From Elusimicrobiota bacterium (lineage in GTDB: Bacteria > Elusimicrobiota > Elusimicrobia > UBA1565 > UBA9628): a stretch of 64,000 nt of DNA. Below the pieces are notes generated by a model, which had not been told where the DNA came from, did not search any database, and saw only the letters and a list, made by a program, of their open reading frames with translations. The position numbers were made by a program, and so were the translations under genes. The stretch covers positions 9,330 to 73,329 of the forward strand of contig JBBTJN010000033.1 in the NCBI GenBank assembly GCA_038059415.1, written 5' to 3'. Numbering within the stretch: the stretch's first letter is position 1; every line of letters begins with the position of its first letter. Shown here piece by piece: positions 6,186-54,262 of the stretch.

Positions 6186-6196
6186 TACGCGGCGCG

Positions 6197-11118: not shown

Positions 11119-11217
11119 TTCTCATCTATGGCATAAAATAGAATGGCCGGGACGAGGTTAAGCCGCTACCATAAGCACAGTCTCCCTGCTTTTCGACTTT
11201 CACTCCAAGAGGAACCC

Positions 11218-13358: not shown

Positions 13359-13370
13359 GAGGATCGTGAA

Positions 13371-30106: not shown

Positions 30107-31245
30107 TTCGTGGCGCGGCTCCCTTTTTTCACTGGTTTCATCGCCGCGAAGCCCTTTTCGCGGATATCAACGATGCTCATCCCGTCGCAGCGGATTTCCA
30201 GGGCACAGCCGCGGCATTGCGAGGCCTTCTGGAAGTAGCGGGAGTCGATATAGAACTTGGCGAAGGCGAAGATGTCGGGCTTCTTGCCGAAGAGGAAAGG
30301 CTCGGGCTTGCCCGCCGGGCGCAGGCACAGGGGGCCGGTCTTGGCCGGCAGGCTGCCGTCCTTGGTGAGCAGGCGGAGGTCAGTGCAAAAATCGCGGAGG
30401 AAGCAATGTTGGCAGGCGTCGCCGGCGCAACTGGGATCTTTCCCGGCGTTGAGGTAGCGCGCGAAGATGCGGCGGCGACCGCGGACTTCGTCGAGTATTT
30501 TCGTCGGCGGCTGGATGAGGGACTCGAAGCCGGCGAGATGCTCCGGGCGCAGACGGTTGGTCCAGATGTGCAGATCGGGGCGGCGGCTGAGCTCGAGCGC
30601 GTGGTGGAGGTGTGCGAGATTCTCGGGCTGGGTGAAGTCGCAATGGAGCGCTGCGCGGTTCTTCCAGGCGTCGCCGAAGGGGACCAGGGCGAGCAGATCG
30701 AACTCCCCGACGCCCAGTCCGATGCAGAAATCGAGGTGCTCGCGCAGGACGGGCAGGTTCAGCTTGTTGATGACGACGTCCACGCTTACGATGAGCCCCG
30801 GAGTGGCCAGCGCGGCGCGCAGGCCCGAGAGCGCCTGGACGAATGACCCCGGAACCTGCGTGAGCTTGTCGTGAAGGGCGGGCGTGTTGCCGTGGAGAGA
30901 GAAGGTGATTTCCTTGAGTCCCGCCGCGACGGCCTTTTTCAAGAAATCGGGATAGCAGAACTTGCGGCCATTGGTAATCGTCTGGATGTGGGTGTATCCC
31001 AACTTGCGGGCCAGGCTAAGGATCTCGATGAACTCGGGATGGACGGTGGCTTCGCCGCCGCTGAGCACCGCGCGGCGCAGCCCCAGCTTGCGGCCGGTGA
31101 GCAAGGAGCGCTTGATGGAGGCCATTGGGACGTCGCCCCCGGTCTGAGCATAGCGGTCTAGGCAGAAGATGCAGCGCTGGTTGCAATAGCGGGTGAGCCG
31201 GACCCAGTGCCGCTTCTCGAAGGCGCCCTCGCCGTTCTCGCTCAC
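30103..31245 (-). CDS. Radical SAM protein with a Cys-rich C-terminal region.
   Basis: The motifs are CNQRCIFC and SGGEATV. The C-terminus is CAGDACQHCFLRDFC...CRGCALEIRCDG. The track ORF (724 aa) runs through the upstream gene. A GTG at 31245 with a GGAGG RBS overlaps the upstream stop (GTGA). Confidence 0.65.
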   Translation of the reverse strand: MSENGEGAFEKRHWVRLTRYCNQRCIFCLDRYAQTGGDVPMASIKRSLLTGRKLGLRRAVLSGGEATVHPEFIEILSLARKLGYTHIQTITNGRKFCYPDFLKKAVAAGLKEITFSLHGNTPALHDKLTQVPGSFVQALSGLRAALATPGLIVSVDVVINKLNLPVLREHLDFCIGLGVGEFDLLALVPFGDAWKNRAALHCDFTQPENLAHLHHALELSRRPDLHIWTNRLRPEHLAGFESLIQPPTKILDEVRGRRRIFARYLNAGKDPSCAGDACQHCFLRDFCTDLRLLTKDGSLPAKTGPLCLRPAGKPEPFLFGKKPDIFAFAKFYIDSRYFQKASQCRGCALEIRCDGMSIVDIREKGFAAMKPVKKGSRATN

Positions 31246-32555
31246 GCGACCTCCAGCTTTTCTAGATTCATGCCCTGCGAGACGCCGTTGGCCACGCGAG
31301 AGAGAAAGCCCAAAGCGCCCTGGAAGCCCAGGAACGGCTCGTCGCGCAGGAAGTGCGTGTCTTCCGAGGGATAGCCGAATTCCATGAACTTCGGGCCGCG
31401 GTGGATTTGGGCGAAGGCGAAATCGCTCCCGATGACAAGGTCGGCCCCGCCCTCGCGTCGGCAGAGCGCGCCCCACCGGTCGCGGACCTCGATGGGGAGG
31501 GGCTCGAACAAGGTGCCGGAGCGGCGCTCCAGGGCCCGTCTCTGCGCTTCGTTTAGATGGTAGGCGCCGCCGATCACGATCGTGCCCGCGATATTGCCGC
31601 CCAGGTCTTCGATCATCTCGGCGAATGCCAGGGCGTAATGCGGGTCGCCGGAGAAGGCGAAGGTCCGGTTCAGGAAGACATGAGGCACGCTCCAGGCCAG
31701 GCGCGGGGCGATCTCGTCGAGCTCGGCGGCGATGAAGGCTTTGGCCCGCTCCACTCTCCCGCACTCGTGGCCGAGCTGTTCGACGAAGCGGCGCGTCGCC
31801 TCGAGACCGAACGGCAGTTCCGCGTCGACGAGGGGCACTCTCAGGCGCTGAGCCAGGATCATCGCGGCCTTGCGGCCGTGGGGCATCGAGATGATCGCAC
31901 CGGCTCGGCGCACGTCGCGCAGGCGCTCGTAGGGCCGGCCGGACAGCCAGATCGAAACGGGCTCCAGCCCCAGGGCGCGGACGATGCGTTCGAGCTCCTT
32001 CAGGTTCCCCTGGTGATCGCCCTCGTTGCGGTCCATCAGGTAACCGACAAGGGCGACGTTCTTGTTCTTCGGCCTGGCTCCGTTGAGGTCCATGCCCGTC
32101 GCCATGGCCTCCATGACCGAGGCGTAGCCGTCGAGCCAGTCGCCCGACACGGCGGAGCGGCGCGGCATGGTGAAGGAGGGCTTGGCGTGGCCCGCCATGG
32201 CCTGGCGCAGTATGCGGTCGTAGTCGGTCCCGACGATGGAACACATCGGCATCGAGCCCAGAAAGACCACGCCGCACTTGGGCAGGGCCGCCATGCTGCG
32301 CAAAGAGGCGACGATGTCGCCCTCGCAGTCCCCGGCGATGTTGAAGACGTTGACGCCCGTGTGCTGTATGCGGTGGCGGCTATCGCAGGACAGCAAGGTC
32401 GAGAACAGGTCGTGGCGGCCGTGGATGTGGGAAGCTTTGTCGAAGATACAGCTGGGTCCGTCGCCGAGGAAGAAGGCGTCGGGGACGGCGTTCAAGGCCA
32501 GGTAGGCTCCCTGAAGGAAGGGGATGTTGATGCGGACACCGATTTTATTTGACAT
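31242..32555 (-). CDS. Nitrogenase component-1-like oxidoreductase subunit, A-type (NifD/NifE/BchN-like family), copy 1.
   Basis: 437 aa. VNIPFLQGAYLALNAVPDAFFLGDGPSC, GSMPMCSIVGTDY and GYLMDRNEGDH are conserved across five paralogs. It resembles PF00148-family proteins. Confidence 0.7.
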   Translation of the reverse strand: MSNKIGVRINIPFLQGAYLALNAVPDAFFLGDGPSCIFDKASHIHGRHDLFSTLLSCDSRHRIQHTGVNVFNIAGDCEGDIVASLRSMAALPKCGVVFLGSMPMCSIVGTDYDRILRQAMAGHAKPSFTMPRRSAVSGDWLDGYASVMEAMATGMDLNGARPKNKNVALVGYLMDRNEGDHQGNLKELERIVRALGLEPVSIWLSGRPYERLRDVRRAGAIISMPHGRKAAMILAQRLRVPLVDAELPFGLEATRRFVEQLGHECGRVERAKAFIAAELDEIAPRLAWSVPHVFLNRTFAFSGDPHYALAFAEMIEDLGGNIAGTIVIGGAYHLNEAQRRALERRSGTLFEPLPIEVRDRWGALCRREGGADLVIGSDFAFAQIHRGPKFMEFGYPSEDTHFLRDEPFLGFQGALGFLSRVANGVSQGMNLEKLEVA

Positions 32556-34275
32556 GATCGGCTCCCTGGGTTCCGGCGAGGTGGGCGGCGTAGCGGCGGT
32601 AGAACGGCAGGCGGCAGACGGAGAGGAGTTTTTTGAAGGTATTCATCGCACCGGCCAGGCCCATTTCGAAATCCTTGCCGCCGAAGCGGGCCTTGCCGGC
32701 CTGCATGATGCGCCAGTCGAAGACGACGTCGGAATAGACGGCGCGGAAGTCGTCGCCGGCCAGGGCCTTCTCCAGCTCCCAGGGCGTGCGGAACACCGTC
32801 ACGCGTGCGTCCTTGAGCCCGGAGGGGAGTGCGGGCGCGGCGCCATGCAGGTCGTAGTAGATGATGTCGATGGGAAATCCCATCTCGCGAACCATCTTCG
32901 CCAGCGGCGCGCCGCAGCCGTAGCGCAGGGTCATCAGCCGCGGCAAGGTCGCCTCGGAGGCGACGAAGGCGACGCGGTAGTTCGCGGCCTCCTTTTTCAT
33001 CTCGTTCCATGCGGCGAGGCAATCGACTGTCGTCTCGGCCCAGACCGTCTTGAACTCGGCTTCCTTGCCGACGGCGGCGGCGATGCCGCGCAGGCATTCG
33101 CGCGTGCTCTCGATGCCGTAGGGAGCGTTCACGACGATAACCGGACGCGAGGTCTTGGCCAGCATGTCTTGAAGCTTCGTCGGGTATGAGCTCCGGTCGC
33201 AGAAGATCTGCCATATCGCTTTGGGCAGGTCGTCGAGGACGGAGAGACGGATGTCGGGCATGACGGTGATGTTGGTCTTGAGCCCGATCTTCTGGAGGAA
33301 CGGCTTCAATTCGGCTTCGCGGTAATTCGGCGGGAAATGGAACAGGTTGACGGCCAAGGCGTCGGCGGGCGCCTCGAAGAATCCGGGACGGCCGAGCAAG
33401 GCGCGGAAGTGCTCGCCGAAGTTGTCGTTTGCGTCGCGGTCCTTCTGGCTCCAGCGCACGGAGGTGCCGTCGACCTCCTTTTCGCAGCGGCGCGCTAGGC
33501 CAGAGAAGTCCTCGCCCATGATGATGGGCGTGCACAGATGGGTGAAGAGAAGGTAGCTGCCGTTCTTGGCGCGCTTGCGGACCGCCTCGACCAGGGCGTC
33601 GGCGCGTTCGCCTGTCCCCATGATCATATCGCGCTCCTCGAGCTCGGTTACGATGGAGGAGTCCTCGCCGTCGTCGCGCACGCCGACCTCGCTTTCCTGG
33701 GGCCAGTCGAGAAAGGTCCACTTCTTGAAACTGCGATGCGGCCGCGCGTAGTAGCATTCAAGGTCGGCGTATTCGATGTTCACCGTGCGCTTGTCGGAGC
33801 ACGAAGGCACGCTCAGCAGAACCTCAAAATCCTGGTCCGCGTAGAAGTTCCGCCAGCCCGCCCCGAGCAGGCTGATAGGCTGGCCGATGCAGGGGACCTT
33901 GACTTGGTCTCCCTCCAGCTCGGGGACTATGTCCTCGGCGAAGGAGAGAGGGTCGACCTCGAGCAGGCGAGCGACGTTTTCGAAGCGGCGGGCTCCGAGA
34001 CGTGCGGCGGAGGCCTTGAGGAACTTCATGACGGAGGGGCCGGCCTCGCCTTCCGGCAGGAAGGACAGGCCGGGCGCCTTGATCGCGCTGCCGGGCGAGG
34101 TGCGGGGAAGAATATAGAAGACCAGACGATGCTCGCCGTGACGCAGACGCACGCAGATGTTCTTCTGATCTAGGCCGCACAGCCCTTCGAGACGCCAGCC
34201 CTTCGAGTCGGCCTTGAGGCCCAGCAGGGCCTCCATCACCGCCATCGCCCGGGGCCCCGCCGTGATGTGGCGCAT
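32545..34275 (-). CDS. Nitrogenase component-1-like oxidoreductase subunit, B-type (NifK/NifN/BchB-like family), copy 1.
   Basis: FTHLCTPIIMGEDF (Cys-x-x-x-x-IGDD-like) and the shared C-terminus AVYSDVVFDWR...KDFEMGL support the call. The internal ATG (MRHITAGPRAM...) matches paralog N-termini. Confidence 0.65.
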   Translation of the reverse strand: MRHITAGPRAMAVMEALLGLKADSKGWRLEGLCGLDQKNICVRLRHGEHRLVFYILPRTSPGSAIKAPGLSFLPEGEAGPSVMKFLKASAARLGARRFENVARLLEVDPLSFAEDIVPELEGDQVKVPCIGQPISLLGAGWRNFYADQDFEVLLSVPSCSDKRTVNIEYADLECYYARPHRSFKKWTFLDWPQESEVGVRDDGEDSSIVTELEERDMIMGTGERADALVEAVRKRAKNGSYLLFTHLCTPIIMGEDFSGLARRCEKEVDGTSVRWSQKDRDANDNFGEHFRALLGRPGFFEAPADALAVNLFHFPPNYREAELKPFLQKIGLKTNITVMPDIRLSVLDDLPKAIWQIFCDRSSYPTKLQDMLAKTSRPVIVVNAPYGIESTRECLRGIAAAVGKEAEFKTVWAETTVDCLAAWNEMKKEAANYRVAFVASEATLPRLMTLRYGCGAPLAKMVREMGFPIDIIYYDLHGAAPALPSGLKDARVTVFRTPWELEKALAGDDFRAVYSDVVFDWRIMQAGKARFGGKDFEMGLAGAMNTFKKLLSVCRLPFYRRYAAHLAGTQGADHVK

Positions 34276-34337
34276 CTTAGGCGGCGGCCTGCGCGCCGCG
34301 GCGCCCGCCGACGGACTTTTCATTTGGGTTGGAGGTA

Positions 34338-35150
34338 TCATCGGATGCTTCCTTCAAAGGATTTTATTTCGCGCGGAAGCGCGGGGAGGTCCGGGCGCAG
34401 TTCCGGCGCCGCCGACGCGAGCCGACGGCGCAGGTCCATGAAGAACTCGCCGTAGCGGCGGCCGAAGGCGATGTTATTGAGCAAAATCCGCCGCTGGCGC
34501 GCATTCCCGGCGTACATCGTGAAATGGGCGCTGGCGCAATGGAAACGATTGATGTAGAGGGAGTCGTAGGGGGGAGCATCGATCACGTTGCCCAAAGCGC
34601 GAGGCGTCGGGGCTCCCGGCGGCACGACCTCCATCAGCCATTCGGTGAGCAGGCGTATGGTGCCGTCCGTGTCCACGGTGAACTCGGGGTTGATGACCCC
34701 CGGCTCGACATCGCCGCGCAGATTGCCGATGCGGATATCGCCGGTCGCCAGTGCCCGGCGATGGCGCGCGAGCGATAACTCCTCGGCCTCGAGCAGGGCG
34801 TCGAGGAGGACGCGCTCGAACTCCTCGAGCCAGCCGATGGGAGCGGCCTTGGCCAGGCGCGCGAGGCAGGCGCGGACCAAGGGATCGTCCGCGTTCTTCG
34901 GCGAAGGCGCGGGCGTGACGGAAAAGCCCTCGCCGCATAGGGCGGTGAGCCTCACGATCCGGTATAGGTTCTCGAGAAGCTCCGACACGGGGGATTCCTG
35001 TCTCGCGATGAAGATGAGGTGCTCCTGATTGAGGCCGCAGCGCGCGAATTCGAGGGCGACCTCCTCGATGCGCGCGTAGCGGCTTGTTTTTCCCAGGCGC
35101 TTGAGCTGGGCGTCGCAGAAGCTGCCGGTCTCGATGCGAAGAGGCCTCAT
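34338..35150 (-). CDS. Radical-SAM C-terminal-half homolog lacking the CxxxCxxC motif. It is either a truncated remnant or an accessory subunit.
   Basis: It starts at the GxES-type motif (IETGSFCDAQLKRLGK), homologous to [16 protein letters not shown] of the 13801 gene. It also carries the LNSEL-like segment (INPEFTVDTDG) and the ILLNNIAFGRRYGEFF tail of the 15717 family. No Cys triad is present. Confidence 0.45.
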   Translation of the reverse strand: MRPLRIETGSFCDAQLKRLGKTSRYARIEEVALEFARCGLNQEHLIFIARQESPVSELLENLYRIVRLTALCGEGFSVTPAPSPKNADDPLVRACLARLAKAAPIGWLEEFERVLLDALLEAEELSLARHRRALATGDIRIGNLRGDVEPGVINPEFTVDTDGTIRLLTEWLMEVVPPGAPTPRALGNVIDAPPYDSLYINRFHCASAHFTMYAGNARQRRILLNNIAFGRRYGEFFMDLRRRLASAAPELRPDLPALPREIKSFEGSIR

Positions 35151-38789: not shown

Positions 38790-38822
38790 TGCTCTCCGTT
38801 CATGGGGCCGACAAGACTGCTA

Positions 38823-38839
38823 TGCAACGCTACGGCCAA
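38823..38839 (-). promoter_or_regulatory. Candidate sigma-54 promoter for the minus-strand nitrogenase-like/rSAM operon.
   Basis: The reverse complement reads TTGGCCGTAGCGTTGCA, which is TGGC-N8-TTGCA with -24 GG / -12 GC spacing, about 20 nt upstream of the ATG at 38789. Coordinates are +/-2. Confidence 0.45.
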
Positions 38840-38893
38840 CCCGTGCTCGTCTTTGAGAGGTCTCAGTCGTGGAGATGCTTGTGTGGCCCCTAT

Positions 38894-38909
38894 TGGCCAG
38901 ATTGTTGCA
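38894..38909 (+). promoter_or_regulatory. Candidate sigma-54 promoter for the plus-strand nitrogenase-like/rSAM operon.
   Basis: TGGCCAGATTGTTGCA matches TGGCAC-N5-TTGCA. The GC lies about 22 nt upstream of the ATG at 38930. Coordinates are +/-2. Confidence 0.45.
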
Positions 38910-38929
38910 TAACTATGTAGTATTCATCC

Positions 38930-48572: not shown

Positions 48573-48618
48573 AGGTCCTAGATGAGAGAGGCGGTCAGAG
48601 GATTTACAGGAGCTGCCA

Positions 48619-49449
48619 ATGAGCATGGAGAACAACATCGTCGTCTTTGGGAAGGGCGGCATCGGAAAATCCACGATCTCGTCGAACTTAAGCTCGATCT
48701 ATGCCCTCCAGGGACTCAAGGTCCTGCACGTGGGCTGCGATCCCAAACACGACAGCACGTTGGGCCTCGTTGATGGCGAGCTGATCGAAACTTTCATGGA
48801 GAAGTACACGCGGATATTCGGGGTGCGCGATCATGCCGAGCTCAAGCCCTCCGACCTCATCGTCAAGGGCCGCCTCGGCATCGACTGCGTCGAGGCCGGC
48901 GGACCGGAGCCGGGCGTGGGATGCGCGGGACGGGGAATCTCCCTGATGCTCGAGGCGTTGCAGGACCTGGGCGTGTTGAAGGCGGGCGGCTATGACGCGC
49001 GAATATTTGATGTTCTTGGAGACGTCGTATGCGGCGGCTTCGCCGCGCCTCTGCGCAAGGGCTTCGCCGAGAAGATAGTCATCGTGGTTTCGGAGGAGCT
49101 CATGGCTCTGTACGCGGCCAACAACATCGCCAAGTCCGTTAAAACGTACTCCTCGAACGGCGTTTATCTCGCGGGCTTGGTGGCCAACCTGAAGGACGGC
49201 AAGGTGGAACGCAAGAAGCTCGAGACCTTTGCTAGAACACTGGGGACCCGAATACTGGAGTTTGTGCCGCGCGATCCGGCCGTGCGCAAGGCGGAATTCG
49301 CCCGCAAGAATACGGTCGTCGAGATGGCGCCCAAGAGCCCTTTCGCGAAGAGCATCACGTCCCTGGCGGCGAAGGTTCGTGCCATCCGCAGAGAGGACTG
49401 CCCTATTCCCACACCCATGGATGATCGCCAATTCTACAAGGGCTGGTGA
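48619..49449 (+). CDS. Stand-alone NifH-like ATPase (nitrogenase iron protein / BchL / CfbC family).
   Basis: 276 aa. The P-loop is VVFGKGGIGKST. The cluster Cys pair is GCAGRG and [12 protein letters not shown]. It has 60-70% identity to the N-terminal domains of the two fusion proteins. Confidence 0.85.
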   Translation: MSMENNIVVFGKGGIGKSTISSNLSSIYALQGLKVLHVGCDPKHDSTLGLVDGELIETFMEKYTRIFGVRDHAELKPSDLIVKGRLGIDCVEAGGPEPGVGCAGRGISLMLEALQDLGVLKAGGYDARIFDVLGDVVCGGFAAPLRKGFAEKIVIVVSEELMALYAANNIAKSVKTYSSNGVYLAGLVANLKDGKVERKKLETFARTLGTRILEFVPRDPAVRKAEFARKNTVVEMAPKSPFAKSITSLAAKVRAIRREDCPIPTPMDDRQFYKGW

Positions 49450-49497
49450 GCGTGCTATGAATCAGGTCGACCTCTGCCGCCGCGCGAAGGCGGCGCC

Positions 49498-50700
49498 GTG
49501 ACCGCGGTTTTCTACTACGGACTCTTCGTGATCCTAGCCTCGGTCATTTCGTTCCAGGACTGGAGGGAACGCAAGATTCGCAACAGCCTGATCGTCATGG
49601 GATTGCTCGCCTGCGGGGCGGGCTTCTGCCTGCTCCTGACGAACAGCCTCATAGGCGCGAGCCATGCGCGCCTCTGGCTGCTGGGAGAATACTATCTTCC
49701 TCTGGGCTACTATCCCAGAATGATCGTCCATGTCTTTCTAAGCCTCGTGGCCGGCGTGGGCTTGTGGCGCTATTCGATCTGGCCGGCCGGGGACGCGAAA
49801 TTCTTCACGCTGGCGGCGTTCTTCACCGCCCTGATCGATCCGAACATCCCCGGCTTCCCCTATTTACTTTTCCTGGTGCTTCTCATCAACATCTTCGTGC
49901 CGGCGGGCCTGGTTTTCGTAGTCGAGACTCTCGCAAATCTCGCGCTGAGCATCCCGCGCCTGCGCACGGTCAATTGGAGCGGGCGGCTTAAAGCCTGCGC
50001 AGAGGTGGTCGCCATTCGCGCCGGGGAGATGTGGCCCTATCGCGTCGAGTATCTGATCCTCGGCGTGAACCTCTTAGCCTTTTTTTTCGCGCTGCAGATG
50101 ACGGTGTTTCATTACAGCAAGCTCGTCAGGGAGCCTTGGGGGTCGCTGGCTATTTTCGTGCTCATGTTCGCCTGCTGGGGCAGCATGGTGAAAGTGCTGC
50201 GAAATAAGAAGGTCGGGGTCGTGGTGTTTACGGTCCTCTGTGTCGTGGTGCTGATGGGCGTGTTCCACCTGCACTGGGCCGTCAGGGAGGGCTTCTTCGC
50301 GGCCCTGCGCATGGTCTTTAATTTCGGGATGCTTCTCTCCGTGGGCAGACTGCTCTTTTCCTGGATCATCGAGCGCGACAGCCTCCGGGAGCTTTGCGCG
50401 TCGGACCTCAAATACGGCGACATCCTCTCTGATTTGACCTGGGCTAAAATCAGCGCGGAGAGCGACCTCTCCGGGAAAATGGGTGAGCGCTACGTCGACG
50501 GCCTGTCCCATAGCGACGTCGCGACGCTGAAAGCCTGGCTGGCGAGCCGAACGACGGCGGACTACAACATCTATCACACGATCCCGTTCGCGCTGTGGAT
50601 ATTTCTCGGAACGCTTTGGACCATTTCATATCGGGGCAGCGTCGTCACGGCCCTCGCTCCGTATTTCATCCGAGCTCAGGAGGTCCTTTGCAAAAGATAA
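49498..50700 (+). CDS. Polytopic membrane protein with an A24-type (prepilin-peptidase-like) aspartyl peptidase signature.
   Basis: It has multiple hydrophobic helices. A first Asp context (SFQDWRERKI) and the second-Asp GxGD-like motif WPAGDAKFF resemble the GGDVK/GxGDxK motif of A24 peptidases. GC content is lower than in surrounding genes. Confidence 0.45.
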   Translation: MTAVFYYGLFVILASVISFQDWRERKIRNSLIVMGLLACGAGFCLLLTNSLIGASHARLWLLGEYYLPLGYYPRMIVHVFLSLVAGVGLWRYSIWPAGDAKFFTLAAFFTALIDPNIPGFPYLLFLVLLINIFVPAGLVFVVETLANLALSIPRLRTVNWSGRLKACAEVVAIRAGEMWPYRVEYLILGVNLLAFFFALQMTVFHYSKLVREPWGSLAIFVLMFACWGSMVKVLRNKKVGVVVFTVLCVVVLMGVFHLHWAVREGFFAALRMVFNFGMLLSVGRLLFSWIIERDSLRELCASDLKYGDILSDLTWAKISAESDLSGKMGERYVDGLSHSDVATLKAWLASRTTADYNIYHTIPFALWIFLGTLWTISYRGSVVTALAPYFIRAQEVLCKR

Positions 50701-52991
50701 CGATTTTCGGTAAAGGCGGCATCGGCAAGTCCACGTTGTCGGCCAATCTGGCGGCCGTCTACGCCAAGCGCGGCCTGAAGGTCATCCTCGTGGGCTGCGA
50801 CCCCAAGCATGACACGACCATCTCTCTGACGGACGGCAAGCCCATCCGAACCGTAGTCGAGCATTCCGCCTTCATGGATTCCTCGGGCGGAGAGCTCTCC
50901 GGGATTCTGGTGCGCGGCCGGTTGGGCGTCGACTGCGTGGAGGCGGGCGGGCCCGAGCCCGGCATCGGCTGCGCGGGCCGGGGCATCGGCCGGACGATCA
51001 GCTTACTCGAGGACGCGGGAGTCCTTGATGCGGGCCGCTACGATGTCGCTCTCTTCGACGTGCTGGGGGACGTGGTCTGCGGAGGATTCGCCGCTCCCCT
51101 TCGGGAGGGCTTCGCGGACAAGGTCGTGATCGTGACCTCCGAGGAGTTGATGGCTCTCTACGCGGCCAACAATATCGCCCGCGCCATCCGCAACTACAGC
51201 GAGAACGGCGTCGCCCTGTGCGGCCTGGTTGCCAATCTCCGCGACCTGGACGCTGATCGCGCGAGCGTGTCGCGATTCGCCGAGCAGATCGGGACCGGTG
51301 TCCTCTCCTTCTTCTCCCGCGAGGCCGCCGTCCGCGAGGCGGAGTACAAACGCGTCACCTTGGTCGAGCACGCGCCCGAAAGCGAGCTGACCCGGAAGAT
51401 CGAGGCGTTGGCAGGGAGCCTCCTGAGCTTCGATCGCAGGACGGTGAGCGTGCCCAACCCTCTTACGGATGAACGCTTCAACGAGCTGTCCCGGCAGGCG
51501 TTCATCGTCAGTTCCCCCCAGTTCGGCGCGGCTCGTCCTCCTCGTCCCAGGGTTGCGCCGGTTGCTCCGCCGCCGCAGGCGCGCTCCGTCTCGCCGGTCC
51601 GGCCCGATATGGAAAAGGACATGGCTTGGCAGTCCAAGCTTTGGGAGGGGAACCCGGGCATGAACTCCCAGGTGTGGGGGGCGCAAGATCAGTGGCGGCG
51701 TTTCTACTGCGACTTTGAAACGCGCCGCAACGTCAGGATGTCCATGGAGGGAGGGACCCCCATGGTCAACGTCTGGCATCAGGACCTTGAGTGCACCTAC
51801 TCCACGCCGAACTTCGAGGACGGGAGCCTGCCGGCCTTCTACAAATTCCCCTGGCCCCGCGCGGAAAGGAACAACGATAACGGCGAGGACCGGCCTGATG
51901 ACATGTCCTTGAGCACCATCATGACGAACATCAAGGATCTCGACGTCATCCACGGCGGCGGCAAGAAGCTCGATGAGGCCATCGGCGAGGCAGTGAAGAA
52001 CGCGAAGGGACGCGCGCAAGCCATCATCGTCCACTCGACCTGCATTCCGACCGTCATCGGAGACGACGCCGAGGCCGTCGTCAAGCGCTGGCAGGCGCGC
52101 ACGAGGATCCCGATCGTCTACATGAATCCCGCCGAGAACAGCTGTCAGGAATTGGACGTATGCTTGATGCTCTTCAAGAAGATGCAACAGGCTCCTTCGT
52201 TCGCTAAGATCGCACGGCGCAAGAACACAGTGAATCTGGTGGGCTTTCCCCCCGGTCCGGCTCTCAAGGAGCTCGTAAGCCTGCTGCATGACATCGGCAT
52301 CCGGGTCAACTCCTGCGTGATGCCGACGCTGAGCCTGGAGGTCGCCCGGCGTTACCTCGCCGCCGAAGTCCAAGTCCTCTATCCGAACGCGGCCTATGCG
52401 GCGACTTATAAGGAATTTTTCGAGCCCATGCCCATCCGCACCCTCAAGCCCGGCGCGCCGTATGGATTTGAGGGGACGAAGAAGTGGCTGGAGACTTTGG
52501 CAGGCGAGTTCGGCTTGAAGAGAAAGGTCCGCTCCGCCTACGGGCAGGCGGCGAAAACTTTGACCGCCGATTGGGAGGCCGGTCGCCGCGAGGCGGCTGG
52601 CCAGGGCCTGGCCTTCGTCGTGGACGCCTATCACGTGGGGCGCCTGGCCGACCCGGCTCTGACCTGGGCGATTCCGGTGCTGAGGTTCCTGCGCGAGATG
52701 GGATTCGGCGTGGAGATATTGTGCTACGGCCGGGCCCTAAAGCAGGCGCCCCATTTTACCCCCTTCAGCGCTCCAGCGGAGCTCGAAGCGCTGCTGCTTG
52801 AGGGCCCGTTCCAGGCCGTCTACTCGGAATACGCCTATGACTCGAGGTTGGCCCGGGCCGGGAAGGCGCAGTTCTCTCTCGAGGATTTCGAGATGGGCCT
52901 GGGCGGGGCCGTGCGCACCTTGCGCAAACTGGGCGGGATTTGCCGCTGGCCGTTCCAGAGGAGATATGCGAAATACATGGGGATGTTGTAA
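50688..52991 (+). CDS. Fusion protein: NifH-like ATPase joined to a B-type nitrogenase component-1-like domain, second copy.
   Basis: A TTG start gives LQKITIFGKGGIGKST and GCAGRG...VCGGFA. The C-terminal domain carries WRRFYCDFE, DVIHGGGKK, VHSTCIPTVIGDD and AVYSEYAYDSRLARAGKAQFS. The track ORF starts 31 codons earlier inside the upstream gene. Confidence 0.75.
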   Translation: MQKITIFGKGGIGKSTLSANLAAVYAKRGLKVILVGCDPKHDTTISLTDGKPIRTVVEHSAFMDSSGGELSGILVRGRLGVDCVEAGGPEPGIGCAGRGIGRTISLLEDAGVLDAGRYDVALFDVLGDVVCGGFAAPLREGFADKVVIVTSEELMALYAANNIARAIRNYSENGVALCGLVANLRDLDADRASVSRFAEQIGTGVLSFFSREAAVREAEYKRVTLVEHAPESELTRKIEALAGSLLSFDRRTVSVPNPLTDERFNELSRQAFIVSSPQFGAARPPRPRVAPVAPPPQARSVSPVRPDMEKDMAWQSKLWEGNPGMNSQVWGAQDQWRRFYCDFETRRNVRMSMEGGTPMVNVWHQDLECTYSTPNFEDGSLPAFYKFPWPRAERNNDNGEDRPDDMSLSTIMTNIKDLDVIHGGGKKLDEAIGEAVKNAKGRAQAIIVHSTCIPTVIGDDAEAVVKRWQARTRIPIVYMNPAENSCQELDVCLMLFKKMQQAPSFAKIARRKNTVNLVGFPPGPALKELVSLLHDIGIRVNSCVMPTLSLEVARRYLAAEVQVLYPNAAYAATYKEFFEPMPIRTLKPGAPYGFEGTKKWLETLAGEFGLKRKVRSAYGQAAKTLTADWEAGRREAAGQGLAFVVDAYHVGRLADPALTWAIPVLRFLREMGFGVEILCYGRALKQAPHFTPFSAPAELEALLLEGPFQAVYSEYAYDSRLARAGKAQFSLEDFEMGLGGAVRTLRKLGGICRWPFQRRYAKYMGML

Positions 52992-54262
52992 TGGGACAGC
53001 AATTCAGCTCGCCGATGAATTATCCGACCCTTCTCGGCGTCTACCTGGCGGTCAACGCGCTGAAGGACGCGTACGTGCTAGTCGACGGGCCCGACTGCGC
53101 CTTTTACAAGGCCCACTTTATCCACGGCCGTCATGACCTGAACTCGACCTTGCTTCGCATCAGCGGCCGCCATCGTGTCGCCTTCACCAACATCTGCTCG
53201 CGCGGCGTCGTCAAGGAGCACGACGACATCCTCGGCCGTGAGATTCAGAGGATGGATGGCCTTGAGGAATCAGGGCTGGTCCTGGTGACGGCGCTGCCCA
53301 TGTGCTCGATTACGGGAGTCGATTACGGCCGCGTGATCCGACTGCGCGCCAAAAGCCTGAGCAAGCCGGCCATCGACATACCGCCCGAGTCTTTGGTCGG
53401 CGATTGGCTCGACGGCTATGACCAGACGCTCCACGCGTTGGCCAAGGGGATCGAGCTCGACGCCAGCCTGCGTCGTCCGAGGACCGTGGCCGTCGTCGGT
53501 CATCTCATGGACCGCAACGAGGGCGATCATCTCGCCAACATCGCCGAGATGCAGCGTATGCTTCAAAGCCTTTCTTTGGAGACGGTCTCCGTCTGGCTCA
53601 GCGGGCAGGATTGCTCAGACCTACGCCGCGTCGAGGAGGCCGACATCATCGTCTCCTTGCCCTACGGTCGCGCCGCGGCGCGGCGCCTGGCGAAGCGGAC
53701 GGGCGCGCGCCTCGTGGAGACCGAGCTCCCGTTCGGGCTTCCCAAGACCGTGCGCTTCATGCGCGACGTCGGCGCCGCCGCGGGCAAGGACCGGGAGGCC
53801 GAGGCCTTCATCGACGCGGAATTGTCGAGGGTGGTTCCGCGCCTGAAGTGGATCATACCGCAATATTTCCTCAATCGCCGCACGGGTTTCATGGGCGATC
53901 CGTATCTCCTGGGCGGCTTCCGGGACATCGCCGAGGACCTCGGCATGAAGGTGGAGGGGGCCATCGTCCGCGGTCGCAGCGCGCACGGCGTCGCATCGGC
54001 GGGCGCCGACGTGCTTTATGAACCGCCGTCCATGTCCGACGAGGTCCGCAAATTTATGCAGCTCCCTCTCGATGTTTTTGTCTCCTGCTGGTGCGAGCAT
54101 GAGTGGCCTCAACTTAAATTCCCGACGATGGAATTCGGCTTTCCCAGCTACCGTCACCATGCGCTCTCCGACCGTCCTTTCCTGGGTTTCAACGGGTTCT
54201 TGGCCTTTGTGGAGAGAATGGCCGATGAGTTGACCCGTCCGCCCCGGAAGGCCCATGGTTAA
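52991..54262 (+). CDS. Nitrogenase component-1-like subunit, A-type, copy 5.
   Basis: The N-terminus is MGQQFSSPMNYPTLLGVYLAVNALKDAYVLVDGPDC. The ATG overlaps the upstream TAA (TAATG). Confidence 0.7.
   Translation: MGQQFSSPMNYPTLLGVYLAVNALKDAYVLVDGPDCAFYKAHFIHGRHDLNSTLLRISGRHRVAFTNICSRGVVKEHDDILGREIQRMDGLEESGLVLVTALPMCSITGVDYGRVIRLRAKSLSKPAIDIPPESLVGDWLDGYDQTLHALAKGIELDASLRRPRTVAVVGHLMDRNEGDHLANIAEMQRMLQSLSLETVSVWLSGQDCSDLRRVEEADIIVSLPYGRAAARRLAKRTGARLVETELPFGLPKTVRFMRDVGAAAGKDREAEAFIDAELSRVVPRLKWIIPQYFLNRRTGFMGDPYLLGGFRDIAEDLGMKVEGAIVRGRSAHGVASAGADVLYEPPSMSDEVRKFMQLPLDVFVSCWCEHEWPQLKFPTMEFGFPSYRHHALSDRPFLGFNGFLAFVERMADELTRPPRKAHG

What the first reader, a model, noticed from the sequence alone, without database searches (positions are those of the whole stretch)
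31242..54262. Five paralogous nitrogenase-like (NifD/K, BchN/B family) B-type/A-type subunit gene pairs in one locus, interleaved with radical SAM genes.
Two protein types each recur five times. The A-type is about 430 aa (N-terminus xLNxPaLxGxYxAxNAxxDAYaLxDGPxC). The B-type is about 560-600 aa (HxCTxIVMGEDF, C-terminus [11 protein letters not shown]...K.RFS..DFEMGL). Each B-type gene is always immediately followed by an A-type gene. The pairs lie at 32545/31242, 36438/35147, 40132/41813, 45488/47235 and 50688/52991, in two divergent blocks. Both protein types belong to the nitrogenase component-1-like oxidoreductase family. Their size and number do not fit canonical nifDK/nifEN, and no nifB-like gene, nifEN arrangement, nifH-D-K order or Moco/FeMoco carrier gene is present. 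The pattern is closer to group-IV Nif-like reductases such as the DPOR, COR, CfbCD or Mar classes. Five heterodimer paralogs embedded in an rSAM/RiPP-like locus is, to my knowledge, an undescribed arrangement. It suggests a series of ATP-dependent reductions on a peptide-derived or tetrapyrrole-like substrate.
Basis: partly seen in the sequence, partly recalled or inferred. Interest (0 to 1): 0.9.

Follow-up and report, generated by a model that had tools for sequence, protein, structure and literature searches.

The report
Nitrogenase-like reductases in His-Xaa-Ser peptide cluster
The five gene pairs are real, but they belong to the "Group VI" nitrogenase-like enzymes already described in groundwater Elusimicrobia in 2020; their function is still unknown, and here they sit in one giant gene cluster with a His-Xaa-Ser repeat peptide system, which offers a testable candidate substrate.

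Summary
Ten ORFs at the stated coordinates all hit PF00148 above Pfam's threshold. Each D-like "B" gene is followed by, and overlaps, a K-like "A" gene.

There are corrections. Two B genes are NifH::NflD fusions, and a free NifH gene lies at 48619-49449. The pairs fall into two old subfamilies, three of one and two of the other.

The claim of an undescribed arrangement fails. These are Group VI nitrogenase-like (NFL) genes of groundwater Elusimicrobia. Meheust et al. 2020 reported several nifH/D/K copies next to up to 13 radical SAM genes. A 2026 review still lists Group VI as uncharacterised and proposes a tetrapyrrole substrate.

What I add is context. The cluster spans about 4.2-57.6 kb and holds about 20 radical SAM genes. 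It also holds a bona fide His-Xaa-Ser system: HxsD, HxsB and HxsA4 with about 24 HxS repeats. In other MAGs, hxsD-hxsB-hxsA, radical SAM genes, nifH and nflDK form one tight operon. The association recurs on about 17 contigs from at least three lineages.

My best reading is ATP-driven reduction of a radical-SAM-modified HxsA-derived peptide through a four-Cys inter-subunit [4Fe-4S] cluster. This rests on gene context only. Some Group VI loci, such as one in Desulfobacter, have no Hxs genes nearby.

The parts
31242..32555 (-). A1: NflK-like subunit, subfamily I (437 aa)
   Evidence: PF00148 126.6 bits over the full profile. It is 84% identical to the NflK of the compact cluster L002. Cys36, Cys57 and Cys105 are conserved.
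32545..34341 (-). B1: NflD-like subunit, subfamily I, with a family-specific N-terminal domain of about 125 aa (598 aa)
   Evidence: PF00148 59.9 bits. The N-terminal-domain HMM scores 304 bits. Cys196 and Cys270 are invariant. Cys381 lies at the column aligned to the MarD 'FCYTLS' Cys.
34338..35150 (-). Unknown 270-aa protein between pair 1 and pair 2
   Evidence: No Pfam or NCBIfam hit. The ATG at 35150 overlaps the A2 stop by 4 nt. There is no counterpart in L001/L002.
35147..36445 (-). A2: NflK-like subunit, subfamily II (432 aa)
   Evidence: PF00148 144.1 bits. The ATG at 36445 overlaps the B2 stop by 8 nt. Cys36 and Cys105 are conserved; the third Cys is absent.
36438..38789 (-). B2: NifH::NflD fusion, subfamily II (783 aa)
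   Evidence: PF00142 232.8 bits at residues 8-268 and PF00148 65.3 bits at 417-617. It carries the P-loop GKGGSGKST and the GVGCAGRG and VVCGGFA Cys motifs (sequence).
38930..40135 (+). Radical SAM/SPASM enzyme; first gene of the plus-strand block
   Evidence: PF04055 46.8 bits and PF13186 SPASM 42.9 bits. Its end overlaps the B3 start by 4 nt.
40132..41820 (+). B3: NflD-like subunit, subfamily I (562 aa)
   Evidence: PF00148 63.5 bits. The AlphaFold2 model has pLDDT 79.6, and its best PDB folds are NifD, MarD and NifE alpha chains. It is identical to P0121.
41813..43114 (+). A3: NflK-like subunit, subfamily I (433 aa)
   Evidence: PF00148 136.8 bits. It is 86% identical to an Elusimicrobia MAG protein, HYV14_14325.
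42970..44499 (+). Radical SAM enzyme, HxsC-like, with an N-terminal extension of about 200 aa. The mechanical ORF start is given; the true start is probably near 43111.
   Evidence: PF04055 72.3 bits. HxsC4 65.5 bits and HxsC 61.2 bits, both below cut-off.
44412..45488 (+). Radical SAM enzyme of the peptide-maturase type (PapB/nif11-like)
   Evidence: PF04055 60.9 bits. NF047865 PapB 109 bits and TIGR04064 89 bits, both below cut-off.
45488..47242 (+). B4: NflD-like subunit, subfamily I (584 aa)
   Evidence: PF00148 50.7 bits. The N-terminal-domain HMM scores 290 bits. Cys180, Cys257 and Cys368 are present.
47235..48572 (+). A4: NflK-like subunit, subfamily I (about 445 aa)
   Evidence: PF00148 141.2 bits. 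The TTG at 47235 follows GGAGGGA and overlaps the B4 stop by 8 nt.
48619..49449 (+). Free NifH-like ATPase ([4Fe-4S] Fe protein; NflH)
   Evidence: PF00142 274.1 bits. It scores CfbC 276 (cut-off 402), NifH 271 (394) and BchL 201 (345), so it belongs to none of them. It is 89-90% identical to NifH in L001 and L010.
49498..50700 (+). Polytopic membrane protein (400 aa) with faint prepilin-peptidase (A24) similarity
   Evidence: PF01478 E 0.006, below threshold. It is 34% identical to a gene upstream of hxsD in L001.
50688..52991 (+). B5: NifH::NflD fusion, subfamily II (about 767 aa from the TTG at 50688)
   Evidence: PF00142 277.4 bits and PF00148 98.6 bits. It is 62% identical to the fusion in L002. 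Fifty-seven of the top 150 cluster representatives show the same fusion.
52991..54262 (+). A5: NflK-like subunit, subfamily II (423 aa)
   Evidence: PF00148 135.6 bits. The ATG at 52991 overlaps the B5 stop by 1 nt.
54578..55336 (+). Divergent member of the PF00590 methyltransferase superfamily, conserved just after the last NflK in many loci
   Evidence: PF00590 42.9 bits. Its nearest relatives are RsmI, not SUMT or CobA. It sits in the same position in L002, L008, L010, L012, L018, L021, L041, L047 and L071.
55386..57589 (+). Two more radical SAM genes, HxsC4-like (55386-56360 and about 56360-57589); downstream end of the cluster
   Evidence: PF04055 71.1 and 66.9 bits. NF038332 HxsC4 scores 119.8 bits over the full length, below cut-off.
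25671..31245 (-). Continuation of the minus-strand operon: a radical SAM gene (30103-31245), a 1165-aa fusion (26609-30106; ferredoxin, carbamoyltransferase, radical SAM) and a radical SAM gene (25671-26834)
   Evidence: Pfam hits. The GTG at 31245 overlaps the A1 stop by 4 nt. The 30103 gene is 78% identical to the gene that follows NflK in L002.
11143..13823 (+). His-Xaa-Ser system: HxsD (11143-11865), HxsB (11862-13358) and the HxsA4 precursor (13371-13823; 150 aa with about 24 HxS repeats at 13602-13817)
   Evidence: HxsD TIGR03976 scores 59.9 against a cut-off of 50. HxsB TIGR03978 scores 510.5 against 370. HxsA4 NF038313 scores 112.1 against 55. The repeats were found.
13824..25674 (+). 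Block of about nine radical SAM, B12-binding radical SAM and double radical SAM genes downstream of hxsA
   Evidence: Pfam and NCBIfam hits. The gene order matches L074.
4249..9667 (.). Upstream edge of the cluster: a radical SAM gene (4249-5247, minus strand) and a second 1156-aa fusion (6197-9667, plus strand; ferredoxin, carbamoyltransferase, radical SAM)
   Evidence: Pfam hits: Carbam_trans_C 206.5 bits, Carbam_trans_N 105 bits, Fer4_10, Radical_SAM.

Best explanation
**Identity (about 0.9).** This is a Group VI nitrogenase-like (NFL) super-cluster from a groundwater Elusimicrobiota bacterium. It holds five NflD/NflK (alpha/beta-type) paralogous pairs of two old subfamilies. It also holds three NifH-type Fe-protein domains, one free and two fused to NflD through Pro/Ala-rich linkers of about 60-70 aa. 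It is not a nitrogenase.

**Mechanism (inferred, about 0.4).**
- The NFL genes belong to one pathway of about 53 kb, together with about 20 radical SAM enzymes and a type-4 His-Xaa-Ser system (HxsD, HxsB, HxsA4).
- HxsA4 is the ribosomal precursor or scaffold. It has a conserved leader followed by (His-Gly/Ala/Ser-Ser) repeated about 24 times.
- HxsB, HxsD, the HxsC-like enzymes and the B12-dependent radical SAM enzymes cross-link, alkylate and otherwise tailor the repeats.
- The NifH-like dimers hydrolyse ATP to push low-potential electrons into an inter-subunit [4Fe-4S] cluster held by two invariant Cys from NflD and two from NflK.
- Each NflDK paralog then reduces a different unsaturated bond or heterocycle of the modified peptide, in the way DPOR, COR and CfbCD reduce C=C bonds of tetrapyrroles.

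**What is shown and what is inferred.** Family assignments, fusions, Cys conservation, operon structure and recurrent Hxs-NFL linkage are shown. The substrate, the cluster type and the reaction chemistry are inferred.
For: **Identity.**
- PF00148 and PF00142 hits.
- No NCBIfam equivalog cut-off is reached.
- Nearly all close homologues come from Elusimicrobia MAGs.
- The profile retrieves the loci of GWA2_69_24 and RIFCSPLOWO2_12_FULL_59_9. Both are flagged 'new nitrogenase paralog (group VI)' in the defining paper's table. The window's NifH domains are 51-61% identical to theirs.
- The B3 model folds like NifD, MarD and NifE alpha chains.

**Cluster ligands.**
- Two Cys are near-invariant in 117 A-type sequences (99%) and present in all five window paralogs (C35 and C104 in A3 numbering).
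- Two Cys are invariant in all 106 B-type sequences, including all five paralogs (C162 and C235 in B3 numbering).
- C104 and C235 align to the MarD 'SCPTAIIGDD' Cys.
- All three NifH domains keep the P-loop and both cluster Cys.

**Link to the Hxs system.**
- HxsD, HxsB and HxsA4 all exceed their curated cut-offs.
- In GCA_044450905.1 (L001/L002), 19 genes form one co-directional run with gaps of at most about 38 nt or small overlaps between adjacent genes. The order is hxsD, hxsB, hxsA, five radical SAM genes, nifH, nflD, nflK, a radical SAM gene, nifH::nflD, an unknown gene, nflK, a radical SAM gene, the PF00590 gene and a radical SAM gene.
- RBG_16_66_12 (L075) has the same layout.
- Hxs genes or HxS-repeat ORFs lie within 10 kb of NflDK in L015, L022, L024, L026, L044, L046, L051, L059 and L084. 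They lie on the same contig in L071, L072, L079 and in contigs of 33,365 and 34,094 bp.
- These contigs come from Elusimicrobiota, 'Deltaproteobacteria', Polyangia and Myxococcales. Relative orientations vary, which argues for functional linkage rather than inherited synteny.
- Many cluster radical SAM enzymes resemble peptide maturases most closely: HxsB, HxsC, HxsC4, PapB, nif11 and ApyD.
Against: - There is no experimental or structural evidence for any substrate.
- Group VI loci with complete 10-kb flanks in other lineages have radical SAM genes but no Hxs gene, HxS repeat or obvious precursor ORF nearby. Desulfobacter L043 is the clearest case. HxsA therefore cannot be the universal Group VI substrate.
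- In this window hxsA lies about 17 kb from the nearest NFL gene, and the NFL blocks are on both strands.
- No true HxsC equivalog is present. The best scores are 106 bits against a cut-off of 268, and 148 against 500 for HxsC4.
- All characterised NFL enzymes with simple [4Fe-4S] clusters act on tetrapyrroles, and none acts on a peptide (PMC13474568).
Confidence: 0.45

Rival explanations
1. This is the tetrapyrrole hypothesis from the literature. The Group VI NFL complexes reduce C=C bonds of a tetrapyrrole and the radical SAM enzymes tailor it, giving a new F430- or chlorophyll-like cofactor. Five NflDK paralogs would then reduce five different positions. The Hxs genes would be a neighbouring but separate system.
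For: - Meheust et al. 2020 and Chem Rev 2026 propose it. Their grounds are that group VI NifH is sister to groups IV and V, and that B12-binding and HemN_C radical SAM genes lie in some clusters.
- B12-binding radical SAM genes are present here, at 17932-20118 and about 13.9-15.7 kb.
- A PF00590 ('tetrapyrrole methylase' superfamily) gene is conserved after the last NflK.
- The four-Cys pattern fits a DPOR- or CfbD-like simple [4Fe-4S] cluster.
Against: - No tetrapyrrole biosynthesis gene (hemA/L/B/C/D, cobA/cysG, chelatase) lies in the 64-kb window.
- The PF00590 protein is nearest to the rRNA methyltransferase RsmI, not to SUMT or precorrin methylases. From established knowledge, the superfamily also includes diphthine synthase, which acts on a modified protein histidine.
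- In class B radical SAM enzymes the B12 domain binds a cofactor, not the substrate. This is established knowledge; PoyC and TsrM are examples.
- The tight single-operon linkage with hxsDBA in several lineages is not explained.
Confidence: 0.2
2. The NFL reductases act on some other radical-SAM-built small molecule that does not come from HxsA, for example a lipid, a nucleoside-like compound or a carbamoylated metabolite. Hxs and NFL would then be co-located only because both belong to a larger anaerobic radical SAM island.
For: - NFL plus radical SAM clusters occur without Hxs in Desulfobacter and in several Myxococcota loci.
- Two large ferredoxin-carbamoyltransferase-radical SAM fusions are present and recur in relatives. 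From established knowledge, NodU/TobZ-type enzymes usually act on small molecules.
- Some cluster radical SAM enzymes hit lipid-type B12 radical SAM models weakly, namely TIGR04072 and HpnJ.
- Mar and Isr show that NFL enzymes can act on small non-tetrapyrrole substrates.
Against: - Operon-level fusion of hxsDBA with nifH-nflDK in L002 and L075.
- Linkage recurs in different orientations across lineages.
- There are no carrier-protein, PKS, NRPS or lipid genes in the window.
Confidence: 0.25
3. This is a genuine (alternative) nitrogenase or a FeMo-co maturation scaffold of the NifDK or NifEN type.
For: - PF00148 and PF00142 membership.
- A Cys at the column aligned to the MarD 'FCYTLS' cysteine occurs in B1, B4 and 86% of subfamily I. 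I infer from memory that this column corresponds to NifD Cys275.
Against: - Scores are 15-61 bits against cut-offs of 327-874 for NifD/K/E/N and Vnf/Anf models.
- Only 2+2 invariant Cys are found in place of the six P-cluster ligands.
- No NifB, NifEN, NifV or NifX appears among the matches listed.
- The Cys is missing in B3, B2 and B5.
- The literature reaches the same conclusion.
Confidence: 0.02

Closest known systems
Group VI nitrogenase-like (NflH/NflD/NflK) systems of groundwater Elusimicrobia (Meheust et al. 2020, ISME J 14:2907; reviewed in Chem Rev 2026, PMC13474568 section 7)
   Same: - Same phylum.
- The same proteins: homologues in GWA2_69_24, RIFCSPLOWO2_12_FULL_59_9, GWC2_65_9 and RBG_16_66_12.
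- Several nifH/D/K copies per locus.
- Dense radical SAM neighbourhood, including B12-binding radical SAM genes.
- No NifB or NifEN.
- At most four of the six P-cluster Cys.
   Different: Nothing fundamental differs; this is an instance of that kind. The following details do not appear in the main texts I could read:

- Five pairs and about 20 radical SAM genes in one locus.
- A split into two subfamilies.
- NifH::NflD fusions.
- A family-specific N-terminal domain of about 125 aa on subfamily I NflD.
- Physical linkage to a His-Xaa-Ser system.
DPOR (BchL/BchNB) and COR (BchX/BchYZ), the Group V NFL enzymes
   Same: - An ATP-dependent NifH-like reductase paired with an alpha/beta heterotetramer-type catalytic component.
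- A probable simple inter-subunit [4Fe-4S] cluster instead of a P-cluster plus FeMo-co.
- Two paralogous complexes act in series on one substrate, which is a precedent for multiple NflDK pairs.
   Different: - All Bch models score far below cut-off, at 15-46 bits against 324-529.
- The ligand pattern here is 2 Cys + 2 Cys. From memory of Muraki et al. 2010, DPOR uses 3 Cys from BchN and 1 Asp from BchB.
- There are no chlorophyll genes in the window.
- The substrate is unknown.
CfbCD (Ni-sirohydrochlorin a,c-diamide reductive cyclase, Group IV-B) and MarHDK (methylthio-alkane reductase, Group IV-C)
   Same: - The NifH domains score best against the CfbC model, at 225-284 bits.
- MarD (9d9u_A, 9fmg_A) is the best solved-structure sequence match to both the A and B profiles, at about 61 bits.
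- According to the review, CfbC forms a stable complex with CfbD. That is conceptually close to the covalent NifH::NflD fusions seen here.
   Different: - The CfbC cut-off of 402 is not reached, and CfbD scores 20.6 against 268.
- CfbD is homomeric, whereas D/K pairs occur here.
- Mar needs a NifB/MarB-made complex cluster, and no such gene is present.
- Identity to MarD in the fold alignment is only 17-19%.
HXS antiphage system (HxsABCD) of Pseudomonadota (Li et al., Nat Commun 2026, PMC13128918; defined in silico by Haft & Basu 2011)
   Same: - HxsB and HxsD orthologues score above their curated cut-offs.
- An HxS-repeat precursor is encoded immediately after hxsB.
- Radical SAM enzymes mature the precursor.
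- The precursor has a leader and a hydrophobic segment, which suggests processing and export.
   Different: - The canonical system has four genes. [quoted passage not shown]
- Here HxsA4 is 150 aa with about 24 repeats.
- No HxsC equivalog is present.
- About 20 radical SAM genes, carbamoyltransferase fusions and five NFL reductases are attached.
- That paper mentions neither nitrogenase-like genes nor Elusimicrobia.

Membership tests
Group VI NFL (Meheust et al. 2020) | A NifH-like protein with a nucleotide-binding P-loop and the two Cys that bridge a [4Fe-4S] cluster | tested here: met
   All three NifH domains carry GKGG(I/S)GKST, G(V/I)GCAGRG and VVCGGFA (sequences). PF00142 scores 233-277 bits.
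Group VI NFL (Meheust et al. 2020) | Homology to the NifH/D/K of the genomes that the defining paper scored as group VI | tested here: met
   The A-type profile retrieves NifH(+NflD)-NflK loci in GWA2_69_24 (L058) and RIFCSPLOWO2_12_FULL_59_9 (L051). Both are flagged in the paper's group VI column. Identities are 51-61% for NifH, 48-49% for A5 and 39-42% for the B5 core.
Group VI NFL (Meheust et al. 2020) | NifH forms a clade outside groups I-V, sister to group V, in a reference phylogeny | not tested
   No reference sequence set was available offline. The only proxy is that all NifH, CfbC, BchL and BchX model cut-offs are missed.
Group VI NFL (Meheust et al. 2020) | No NifB or NifEN, and no FeMo-co ligands | tested here: met
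   No NifB or NifEN equivalog match appeared among the matches listed for the ORFs scanned, at most the best 25 per protein. One caveat: B1, B4 and 86% of subfamily I have a Cys at the column aligned to the MarD 'FCYTLS' Cys.
Group VI NFL (Meheust et al. 2020) | Several nifH/D/K copies (lineage IV) next to many radical SAM genes | tested here: met
   The window holds five D/K pairs, three NifH domains and about 20 radical SAM genes.
Nitrogenase NifDK/VnfDK/AnfDK and NifEN | Score above the NCBIfam equivalog cut-offs | tested here: not met
   The best scores are 15-61 bits against cut-offs of 327-874.
Nitrogenase NifDK/VnfDK/AnfDK and NifEN | Six P-cluster Cys (three in alpha, three in beta) | tested here: not met
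   Only two Cys per subunit type are conserved across all five paralogs (B-type invariant, A-type 99%). A third Cys in the A-type is limited to subfamily I.
DPOR BchNB / COR BchYZ (Group V) | Score above the BchN/B/Y/Z equivalog cut-offs | tested here: not met
   The best scores are 15-46 bits against cut-offs of 324-529.
CfbCD (Group IV-B) | Score above the CfbC (NF033200) and CfbD (TIGR03282) cut-offs | tested here: not met
   CfbC scores 225-284 against a cut-off of 402. CfbD scores 20.6 against 268.
His-Xaa-Ser system (Haft & Basu 2011; NCBIfam) | HxsA: a precursor with tandem His-Xaa-Ser repeats | tested here: met
   NF038313 HxsA4 scores 112.1 bits against a cut-off of 55. There are 23-24 HxS repeats at 13602-13817.
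His-Xaa-Ser system (Haft & Basu 2011; NCBIfam) | The HxsB radical SAM maturase | tested here: met
   TIGR03978 scores 510.5 bits against a cut-off of 370.
His-Xaa-Ser system (Haft & Basu 2011; NCBIfam) | HxsD | tested here: met
   TIGR03976 scores 59.9 bits against a cut-off of 50. PF27806 HxsD is annotated on the orthologues in L001 and L074-L077.
His-Xaa-Ser system (Haft & Basu 2011; NCBIfam) | The HxsC radical SAM maturase | tested here: not met
   The best HxsC score is 106 against a cut-off of 268, and the best HxsC4 score is 148 against 500 (gene 23756-24817). Several HxsC-like paralogs are present but no equivalog.
HXS antiphage defence system (Li et al. 2026) | [quoted passage not shown] | tested here: not met
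   The cluster has about 40 genes. HxsA4 is 150 aa with about 24 repeats, and no additional domain was found by NCBIfam. A defence function was not testable.

The most novel reading that the evidence does not exclude
Group VI nitrogenase-like reductases would be peptide-modifying enzymes. Under this reading they are the first members of the nitrogenase superfamily to act on a ribosomal peptide.

- They would use ATP-driven low-potential electrons to reduce radical-SAM-built cross-links or heterocycles on the His-Xaa-Ser repeats of HxsA4. Histidine imidazole-derived rings are a possible target.
- The five paralogs would carry out successive or position-specific reductions.
- The product would be a heavily reduced, exported poly-HxS peptide or a cofactor excised from it.
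Probability: 0.35. Interest if true: 0.85.

Novelty: new member of a known kind. Interest (0 to 1): 0.55.

Why it matters
Group VI is the one clade of the nitrogenase superfamily with no characterised member. [quoted passage not shown]

- The locus type itself is not new.
- Operon-level linkage to a defined ribosomal precursor (HxsA4) and its maturases turns an open question into an experiment. One can co-express hxsA4, the radical SAM genes and one NFL module, then look for NFL- and ATP-dependent mass shifts.
- If this is confirmed, nitrogenase-like chemistry would extend from N2, tetrapyrroles and organosulfur compounds to peptides.
- It would also show that the His-Xaa-Ser family, recently shown to be an antiphage effector system in Pseudomonadota, has a far more elaborate relative.
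- If it is not confirmed, the locus remains a good, compactly described example of the known Group VI arrangement.

Tried and rejected
1. **Shared N-terminal domain.** I tested whether the N-terminal domain of about 125 aa on B1, B3 and B4 also occurs on the extended radical SAM and carbamoyltransferase proteins, as a common substrate-binding module. An HMM built from 102 homologues found only B1, B3 and B4. Its last 60 positions turned out to belong to the D-like core and also match B2 and B5. I rejected the idea.
3. **Single-sequence PDB search with B1.** This was uninformative. The profile search was needed.
4. **BLASTP between A and B types.** There were no hits at E 1e-3. The two types are related only at profile or fold level.
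5. **Metagenome scan with HxsB.** It returned only seven loci, too few for statistics.
6. **Search for an HxS repeat, another tripeptide repeat or an obvious small precursor near the Desulfobacter Group VI locus L043.** None was found.
7. **The ISME J version of the defining paper (PMC7785019).** It is not held, so I used the bioRxiv version.
8. **Reference phylogeny with NifD/K/E/N, BchN/B/Y/Z, CfbD and MarD/K.** It was not built because no reference sequences were available offline. Curated HMM cut-offs served as a proxy.
9. **Literature searches.** I searched for any paper linking His-Xaa-Ser, HxsA4 or RiPPs with nitrogenase-like enzymes. None was found in the held library. That library omits most subscription journals.

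Full report
**1. Observation**

The window is about 65% G+C. ORF listing and Pfam scanning confirm ten PF00148 (nitrogenase component 1) proteins at the coordinates given.

- The five A-type proteins are about 423-445 aa. They match the whole profile at 127-144 bits.
- The five B-type proteins match only profile positions of about 45-300, at 51-99 bits.
- Each B gene is followed by an A gene that overlaps it by 1-11 nt. Start codons were checked.
- The minus-strand run is translationally coupled throughout, with 4-11 nt overlaps: B2, A2, an unknown gene, B1, A1 and a radical SAM gene.

Three corrections are needed.

- B2 (36438-38789) and B5 (50688-52991) carry a complete N-terminal NifH domain (PF00142, 233 and 277 bits). 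It is joined to the D-like core by a Pro/Ala-rich linker of about 60-70 aa.
- A free NifH-like gene lies at 48619-49449.
- All three NifH domains keep the P-loop and both [4Fe-4S] cysteines (sequences).

**2. Two old subfamilies, D-like and K-like**

All-against-all BLASTP gives these identities.

| Comparison | Identity |
|---|---|
| A1/A3/A4 with each other | 59-63% |
| A2 and A5 with everything | 40-45% |
| B1/B3/B4 with each other | 45-55% |
| B2 with B5 | 39% |
| B cross-comparisons | 25-32% |

The locus therefore holds two subfamilies.

- Subfamily I has three pairs. Its B protein starts with a family-specific domain of about 125 aa.
- Subfamily II has two pairs. Its B protein starts with NifH.

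The compact cluster of another MAG (L001/L002) has one pair of each kind. They are orthologous to B1/A1 (72% and 84%) and B5/A5 (62% and 64%). B3A3, B4A4 and B2A2 are therefore extra paralogs.

B is the alpha (D/E-like) subunit.
- Its best NCBIfam and PDB matches are NifE, NifD and MarD.
- An AlphaFold2 model of B3 (pLDDT 79.6) superposes best on NifD, MarD and NifE alpha chains.

A is beta-like. Its best matches are BchB and NifK.

**3. What it is not**

- No protein reaches the curated cut-off of NifD/K/E/N, Vnf/Anf, BchN/B/Y/Z or CfbD. Scores are 15-61 bits against cut-offs of 268-874.
- The NifH domains score 225-284 bits against cut-offs of 394 (NifH) and 402 (CfbC), and 164-201 bits against 345 (BchL).
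- No NifB or NifEN match appeared among the NCBIfam matches listed for the ORFs scanned.

**4. Cluster ligands**

I examined 117 A-type and 106 B-type sequences.

- In the A-type, only Cys35 and Cys104 (A3 numbering) are conserved (99%) and present in all five paralogs. A third, Cys56, is limited to subfamily I.
- In the B-type, only Cys162 ('DLEC') and Cys235 ('HLCTPIVMGEDF') (B3 numbering) are invariant, including all five paralogs.
- Profile alignments place A-Cys104 and B-Cys235 on the MarD 'SCPTAIIGDD' cysteine. I infer from memory that this is the position of NifD Cys154 and NifK Cys153.
- The placement of A-Cys35 (NifK Cys70 / BchB Asp36 position) and B-Cys162 (NifD Cys88 position) rests on motif and spacing only, and on my memory of those sequences.

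Two Cys from each subunit fit one inter-subunit [4Fe-4S] cluster. This matches the review's statement that Group VI pairs have at most four of the six P-cluster Cys.

**5. It is already known: Group VI NFL**

- Homologues of A3 and B3 come almost entirely from Elusimicrobia/Elusimicrobiota MAGs from groundwater, with a few Deltaproteobacteria and Myxococcota.
- Meheust et al. 2020 defined NifH 'group VI' in groundwater Elusimicrobia lineages IV and V. They noted highly divergent nifD/K lacking P-cluster Cys motifs. [quoted passage not shown] They found relatives in Myxococcales and Gracilibacteria and predicted tetrapyrrole reduction.
- My profile scan retrieves the loci of GWA2_69_24 and RIFCSPLOWO2_12_FULL_59_9. 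Both are flagged in that paper's group VI column. The window's NifH domains are 51-61% identical to theirs.

**6. The wider locus**

Pfam and NCBIfam scans of the rest of the window show one cluster from about 4249 to 57589. It contains:

- About 20 radical SAM genes, including a B12-binding radical SAM gene, a double radical SAM protein and a SPASM enzyme. Many give HxsC-, HxsC4-, PapB- or nif11-like sub-threshold hits.
- Two fusions of 1156 and 1165 aa, each with an N-terminal domain, a 2x[4Fe-4S] ferredoxin, a NodU/TobZ-type carbamoyltransferase and a radical SAM domain (6197-9667 and 26609-30106).
- A divergent PF00590 methyltransferase (54578-55336) whose nearest relatives are RsmI.
- A polytopic membrane protein (49498-50700).

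The flanks look like ordinary neighbours: MobA/MoeA, hemerythrin, a histidine kinase, Crp, an FAD oxidoreductase, a radical SAM-isochorismatase fusion and NrdD.

**7. The His-Xaa-Ser system**

| Gene | Coordinates | Model | Score | Cut-off |
|---|---|---|---|---|
| HxsD | 11143-11865 | TIGR03976 | 59.9 | 50 |
| HxsB | 11862-13358 | TIGR03978 | 510.5 | 370 |
| HxsA4 | 13371-13823 | NF038313 | 112.1 | 55 |

The HxsA4 ORF is 150 aa and has 23-24 His-Xaa-Ser repeats. The precursor family is well conserved. It has a leader '..[57 protein letters not shown]', then 13-34 H(G/A/S)S repeats, and usually ends in 'SHGQW'.

**8. Hxs and NFL are linked**

- In GCA_044450905.1 (L001/L002), 19 genes run co-directionally with gaps of at most about 38 nt or small overlaps between adjacent genes. 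The order is hxsD, hxsB, hxsA, five radical SAM genes, nifH, nflD(I), nflK(I), a radical SAM gene, nifH::nflD(II), an unknown gene, nflK(II), a radical SAM gene, the PF00590 gene and a radical SAM gene.
- RBG_16_66_12 (L075) has hxsD, hxsB, hxsA, two radical SAM genes, nifH, nflD and nflK.
- I built HMMs locally and scanned 80-odd fetched loci. Hxs genes or HxS-repeat ORFs lie within 10 kb of NflDK in L015, L022, L024, L026, L044, L046, L051, L059 and L084.
- Hosts include Elusimicrobiota, 'Deltaproteobacteria', Polyangia and Myxococcales. The relative orientation varies.
- HxsB-centred look-ups show that the same hxsDBA plus many-radical-SAM architecture also occurs without NFL genes within 10 kb (L074, L076, L077).
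- Group VI loci such as Desulfobacter L043 have seven flanking radical SAM genes but no Hxs element.

The link is therefore strong but not obligatory.

**9. Literature on Hxs**

- The canonical four-gene HXS system of Pseudomonadota was shown in 2026 to be an antiphage system. HxsB, HxsC and HxsD process HxsA and install a +8 Da modification on an SHRSS motif before export (PMC13128918).
- That paper mentions neither nitrogenase-like genes nor Elusimicrobia.
- The Meheust text contains no 'peptide', 'Hxs', 'RiPP' or 'fusion'.
- No held paper links His-Xaa-Ser, HxsA4 or RiPPs with nitrogenase-like enzymes.
- The held library omits most subscription journals, so this is absence in that library only.

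**10. Mechanism proposed**

Shown:
- NifH-type ATPase domains with intact motifs.
- D/K-type pairs with four conserved Cys.
- Translational coupling.
- Operon-level linkage to hxsDBA and the radical SAM genes.

Inferred:
- NifH-like dimers deliver ATP-gated low-potential electrons to an inter-subunit [4Fe-4S] cluster of each NflDK. In subfamily II the NifH domain is tethered to NflD.
- Each NflDK reduces an unsaturated bond of a product that the radical SAM enzymes build on the HxsA4 repeats.
- Five paralogs imply several distinct reductions. DPOR and COR acting in series are the precedent.

I rate identity as Group VI NFL at about 0.9 and the HxsA-derived substrate at about 0.35-0.45. The published tetrapyrrole idea stands at about 0.2, another small molecule at about 0.25, and nitrogenase or NifEN-like function at about 0.02.

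The tetrapyrrole idea is weakened here in three ways.
- The window has no tetrapyrrole biosynthesis genes.
- The PF00590 protein is RsmI-like.
- B12 domains of class B radical SAM enzymes bind a cofactor rather than the substrate. This last point is established knowledge.

**11. Other results**

- NifH::NflD fusions are common. Fifty-seven of the best 150 representatives of 50%-identity clusters found with B5 have NifH plus the D-like core. About 30 of the fetched loci have the fusion too.
- The B-then-A gene order is near-universal across the loci.
- The B-family consensus 'vFCerssy' aligns to MarD 'gFCYTLS'. B1 (Cys381), B4 (Cys368) and 86% of subfamily I therefore keep a Cys at what I infer, from memory of the NifD sequence, is the NifD Cys275 position. 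B3, B2 and B5 have W, R and Y there. This sits oddly with the review's statement that this ligand is missing, and it deserves a structural check.

**12. Verdict**

As a kind of locus it is already described and still uncharacterised, so I file it as a new member of a known kind. Its value lies in the recurrent, operon-level linkage to a His-Xaa-Ser precursor system. That linkage gives the open Group VI question a concrete, testable substrate hypothesis.

Noticed in passing
window 13371-13823 (+); repeats at 13602-13817: An HxsA4 precursor of 150 aa. It has a conserved leader, a hydrophobic segment, about 24 tandem His-(Gly/Ala/Ser)-Ser repeats and a C-terminal SHGQW. The mechanical ORF 13549-15720 overlaps it in another frame, so the B12-binding gene probably starts after 13823.
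   Followed up: yes
window 6197-9667 (+) and 26609-30106 (-): Two paralogous fusion proteins of 1156 and 1165 aa. Each has an unknown N-terminal domain, a 2x[4Fe-4S] ferredoxin, a NodU/TobZ-type carbamoyltransferase and a C-terminal HxsC4-like radical SAM domain. The same carbamoyltransferase core recurs next to NflDK in L007, L011, L013, L026, L027, L032, L033 and L035.
   Followed up: partly
window 36438-38789 (-) and 50688-52991 (+); L002:14286-16562: Covalent NifH::NflD fusions. The architecture is widespread: 57 of the top 150 representatives of 50%-identity clusters and about 30 fetched loci have it, including Myxococcota and Binatia. A fused Fe protein supplies only one NifH domain per alpha subunit, so how the NifH dimer forms is unclear. 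It could pair with free NifH or between tetramers.
   Followed up: partly
window B1 Cys381 (32545-34341, -) and B4 Cys368 (45488-47242, +): In 86% of subfamily I NflD sequences a Cys lies at the column that aligns with the MarD 'FCYTLS' cysteine. I infer that this is the NifD Cys275 position. B3, B2 and B5 have Trp, Arg and Tyr there. The 2026 review states that this ligand is absent from Group VI.
   Followed up: partly
[not shown]
   Followed up: yes
window 49498-50700 (+); L001:7076-8251: A polytopic membrane protein of 400 aa with only faint similarity to prepilin peptidase A24 (E 0.006). It is conserved at 34% identity just upstream of hxsD in the compact cluster. It could be a leader peptidase or an exporter for HxsA.
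   Followed up: partly
window 58442-61500 (+); L076:5307-7816: An FAD/pyridine-nucleotide oxidoreductase and a radical SAM(weak)-isochorismatase fusion lie next to the cluster here. The same two genes lie next to an hxsDBA plus radical SAM cluster in GCA_016218575.1, so they may belong to the pathway.
   Followed up: partly
window 9686-10789 (+): A Cys-rich 367-aa protein with an N-terminal signal-like sequence and a Lys/Glu/Ala-rich C-terminal tail. It has no family hit and lies between the carbamoyltransferase fusion and hxsD.
   Followed up: no
window 10825-11118 (+): A small ORF of 97 aa with a helix-turn-helix-like C-terminus ('MSVARIAKRVGISAKTVYRVLSG') immediately upstream of hxsD. It may be a cluster regulator.
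   Followed up: no
L002:16562-18511: A 649-aa protein with no Pfam or NCBIfam hit sits between NifH::NflD and its NflK in the compact cluster. It has no counterpart in the window.
   Followed up: no
window 20108-21976 (+): A single 622-aa protein with two radical SAM domains. The N-terminal one is PapB/nif11-like and the C-terminal one is AhbD/HxsC-like.
   Followed up: no
L043 (Desulfobacter MAG, contig of 4.45 Mb), 2380-20376: A Group VI NifH-NflD-NflK trio flanked by seven radical SAM or B12-binding radical SAM genes. No Hxs gene, HxS repeat or obvious precursor ORF lies within 10 kb. This is a useful contrast case for the substrate question.
   Followed up: partly
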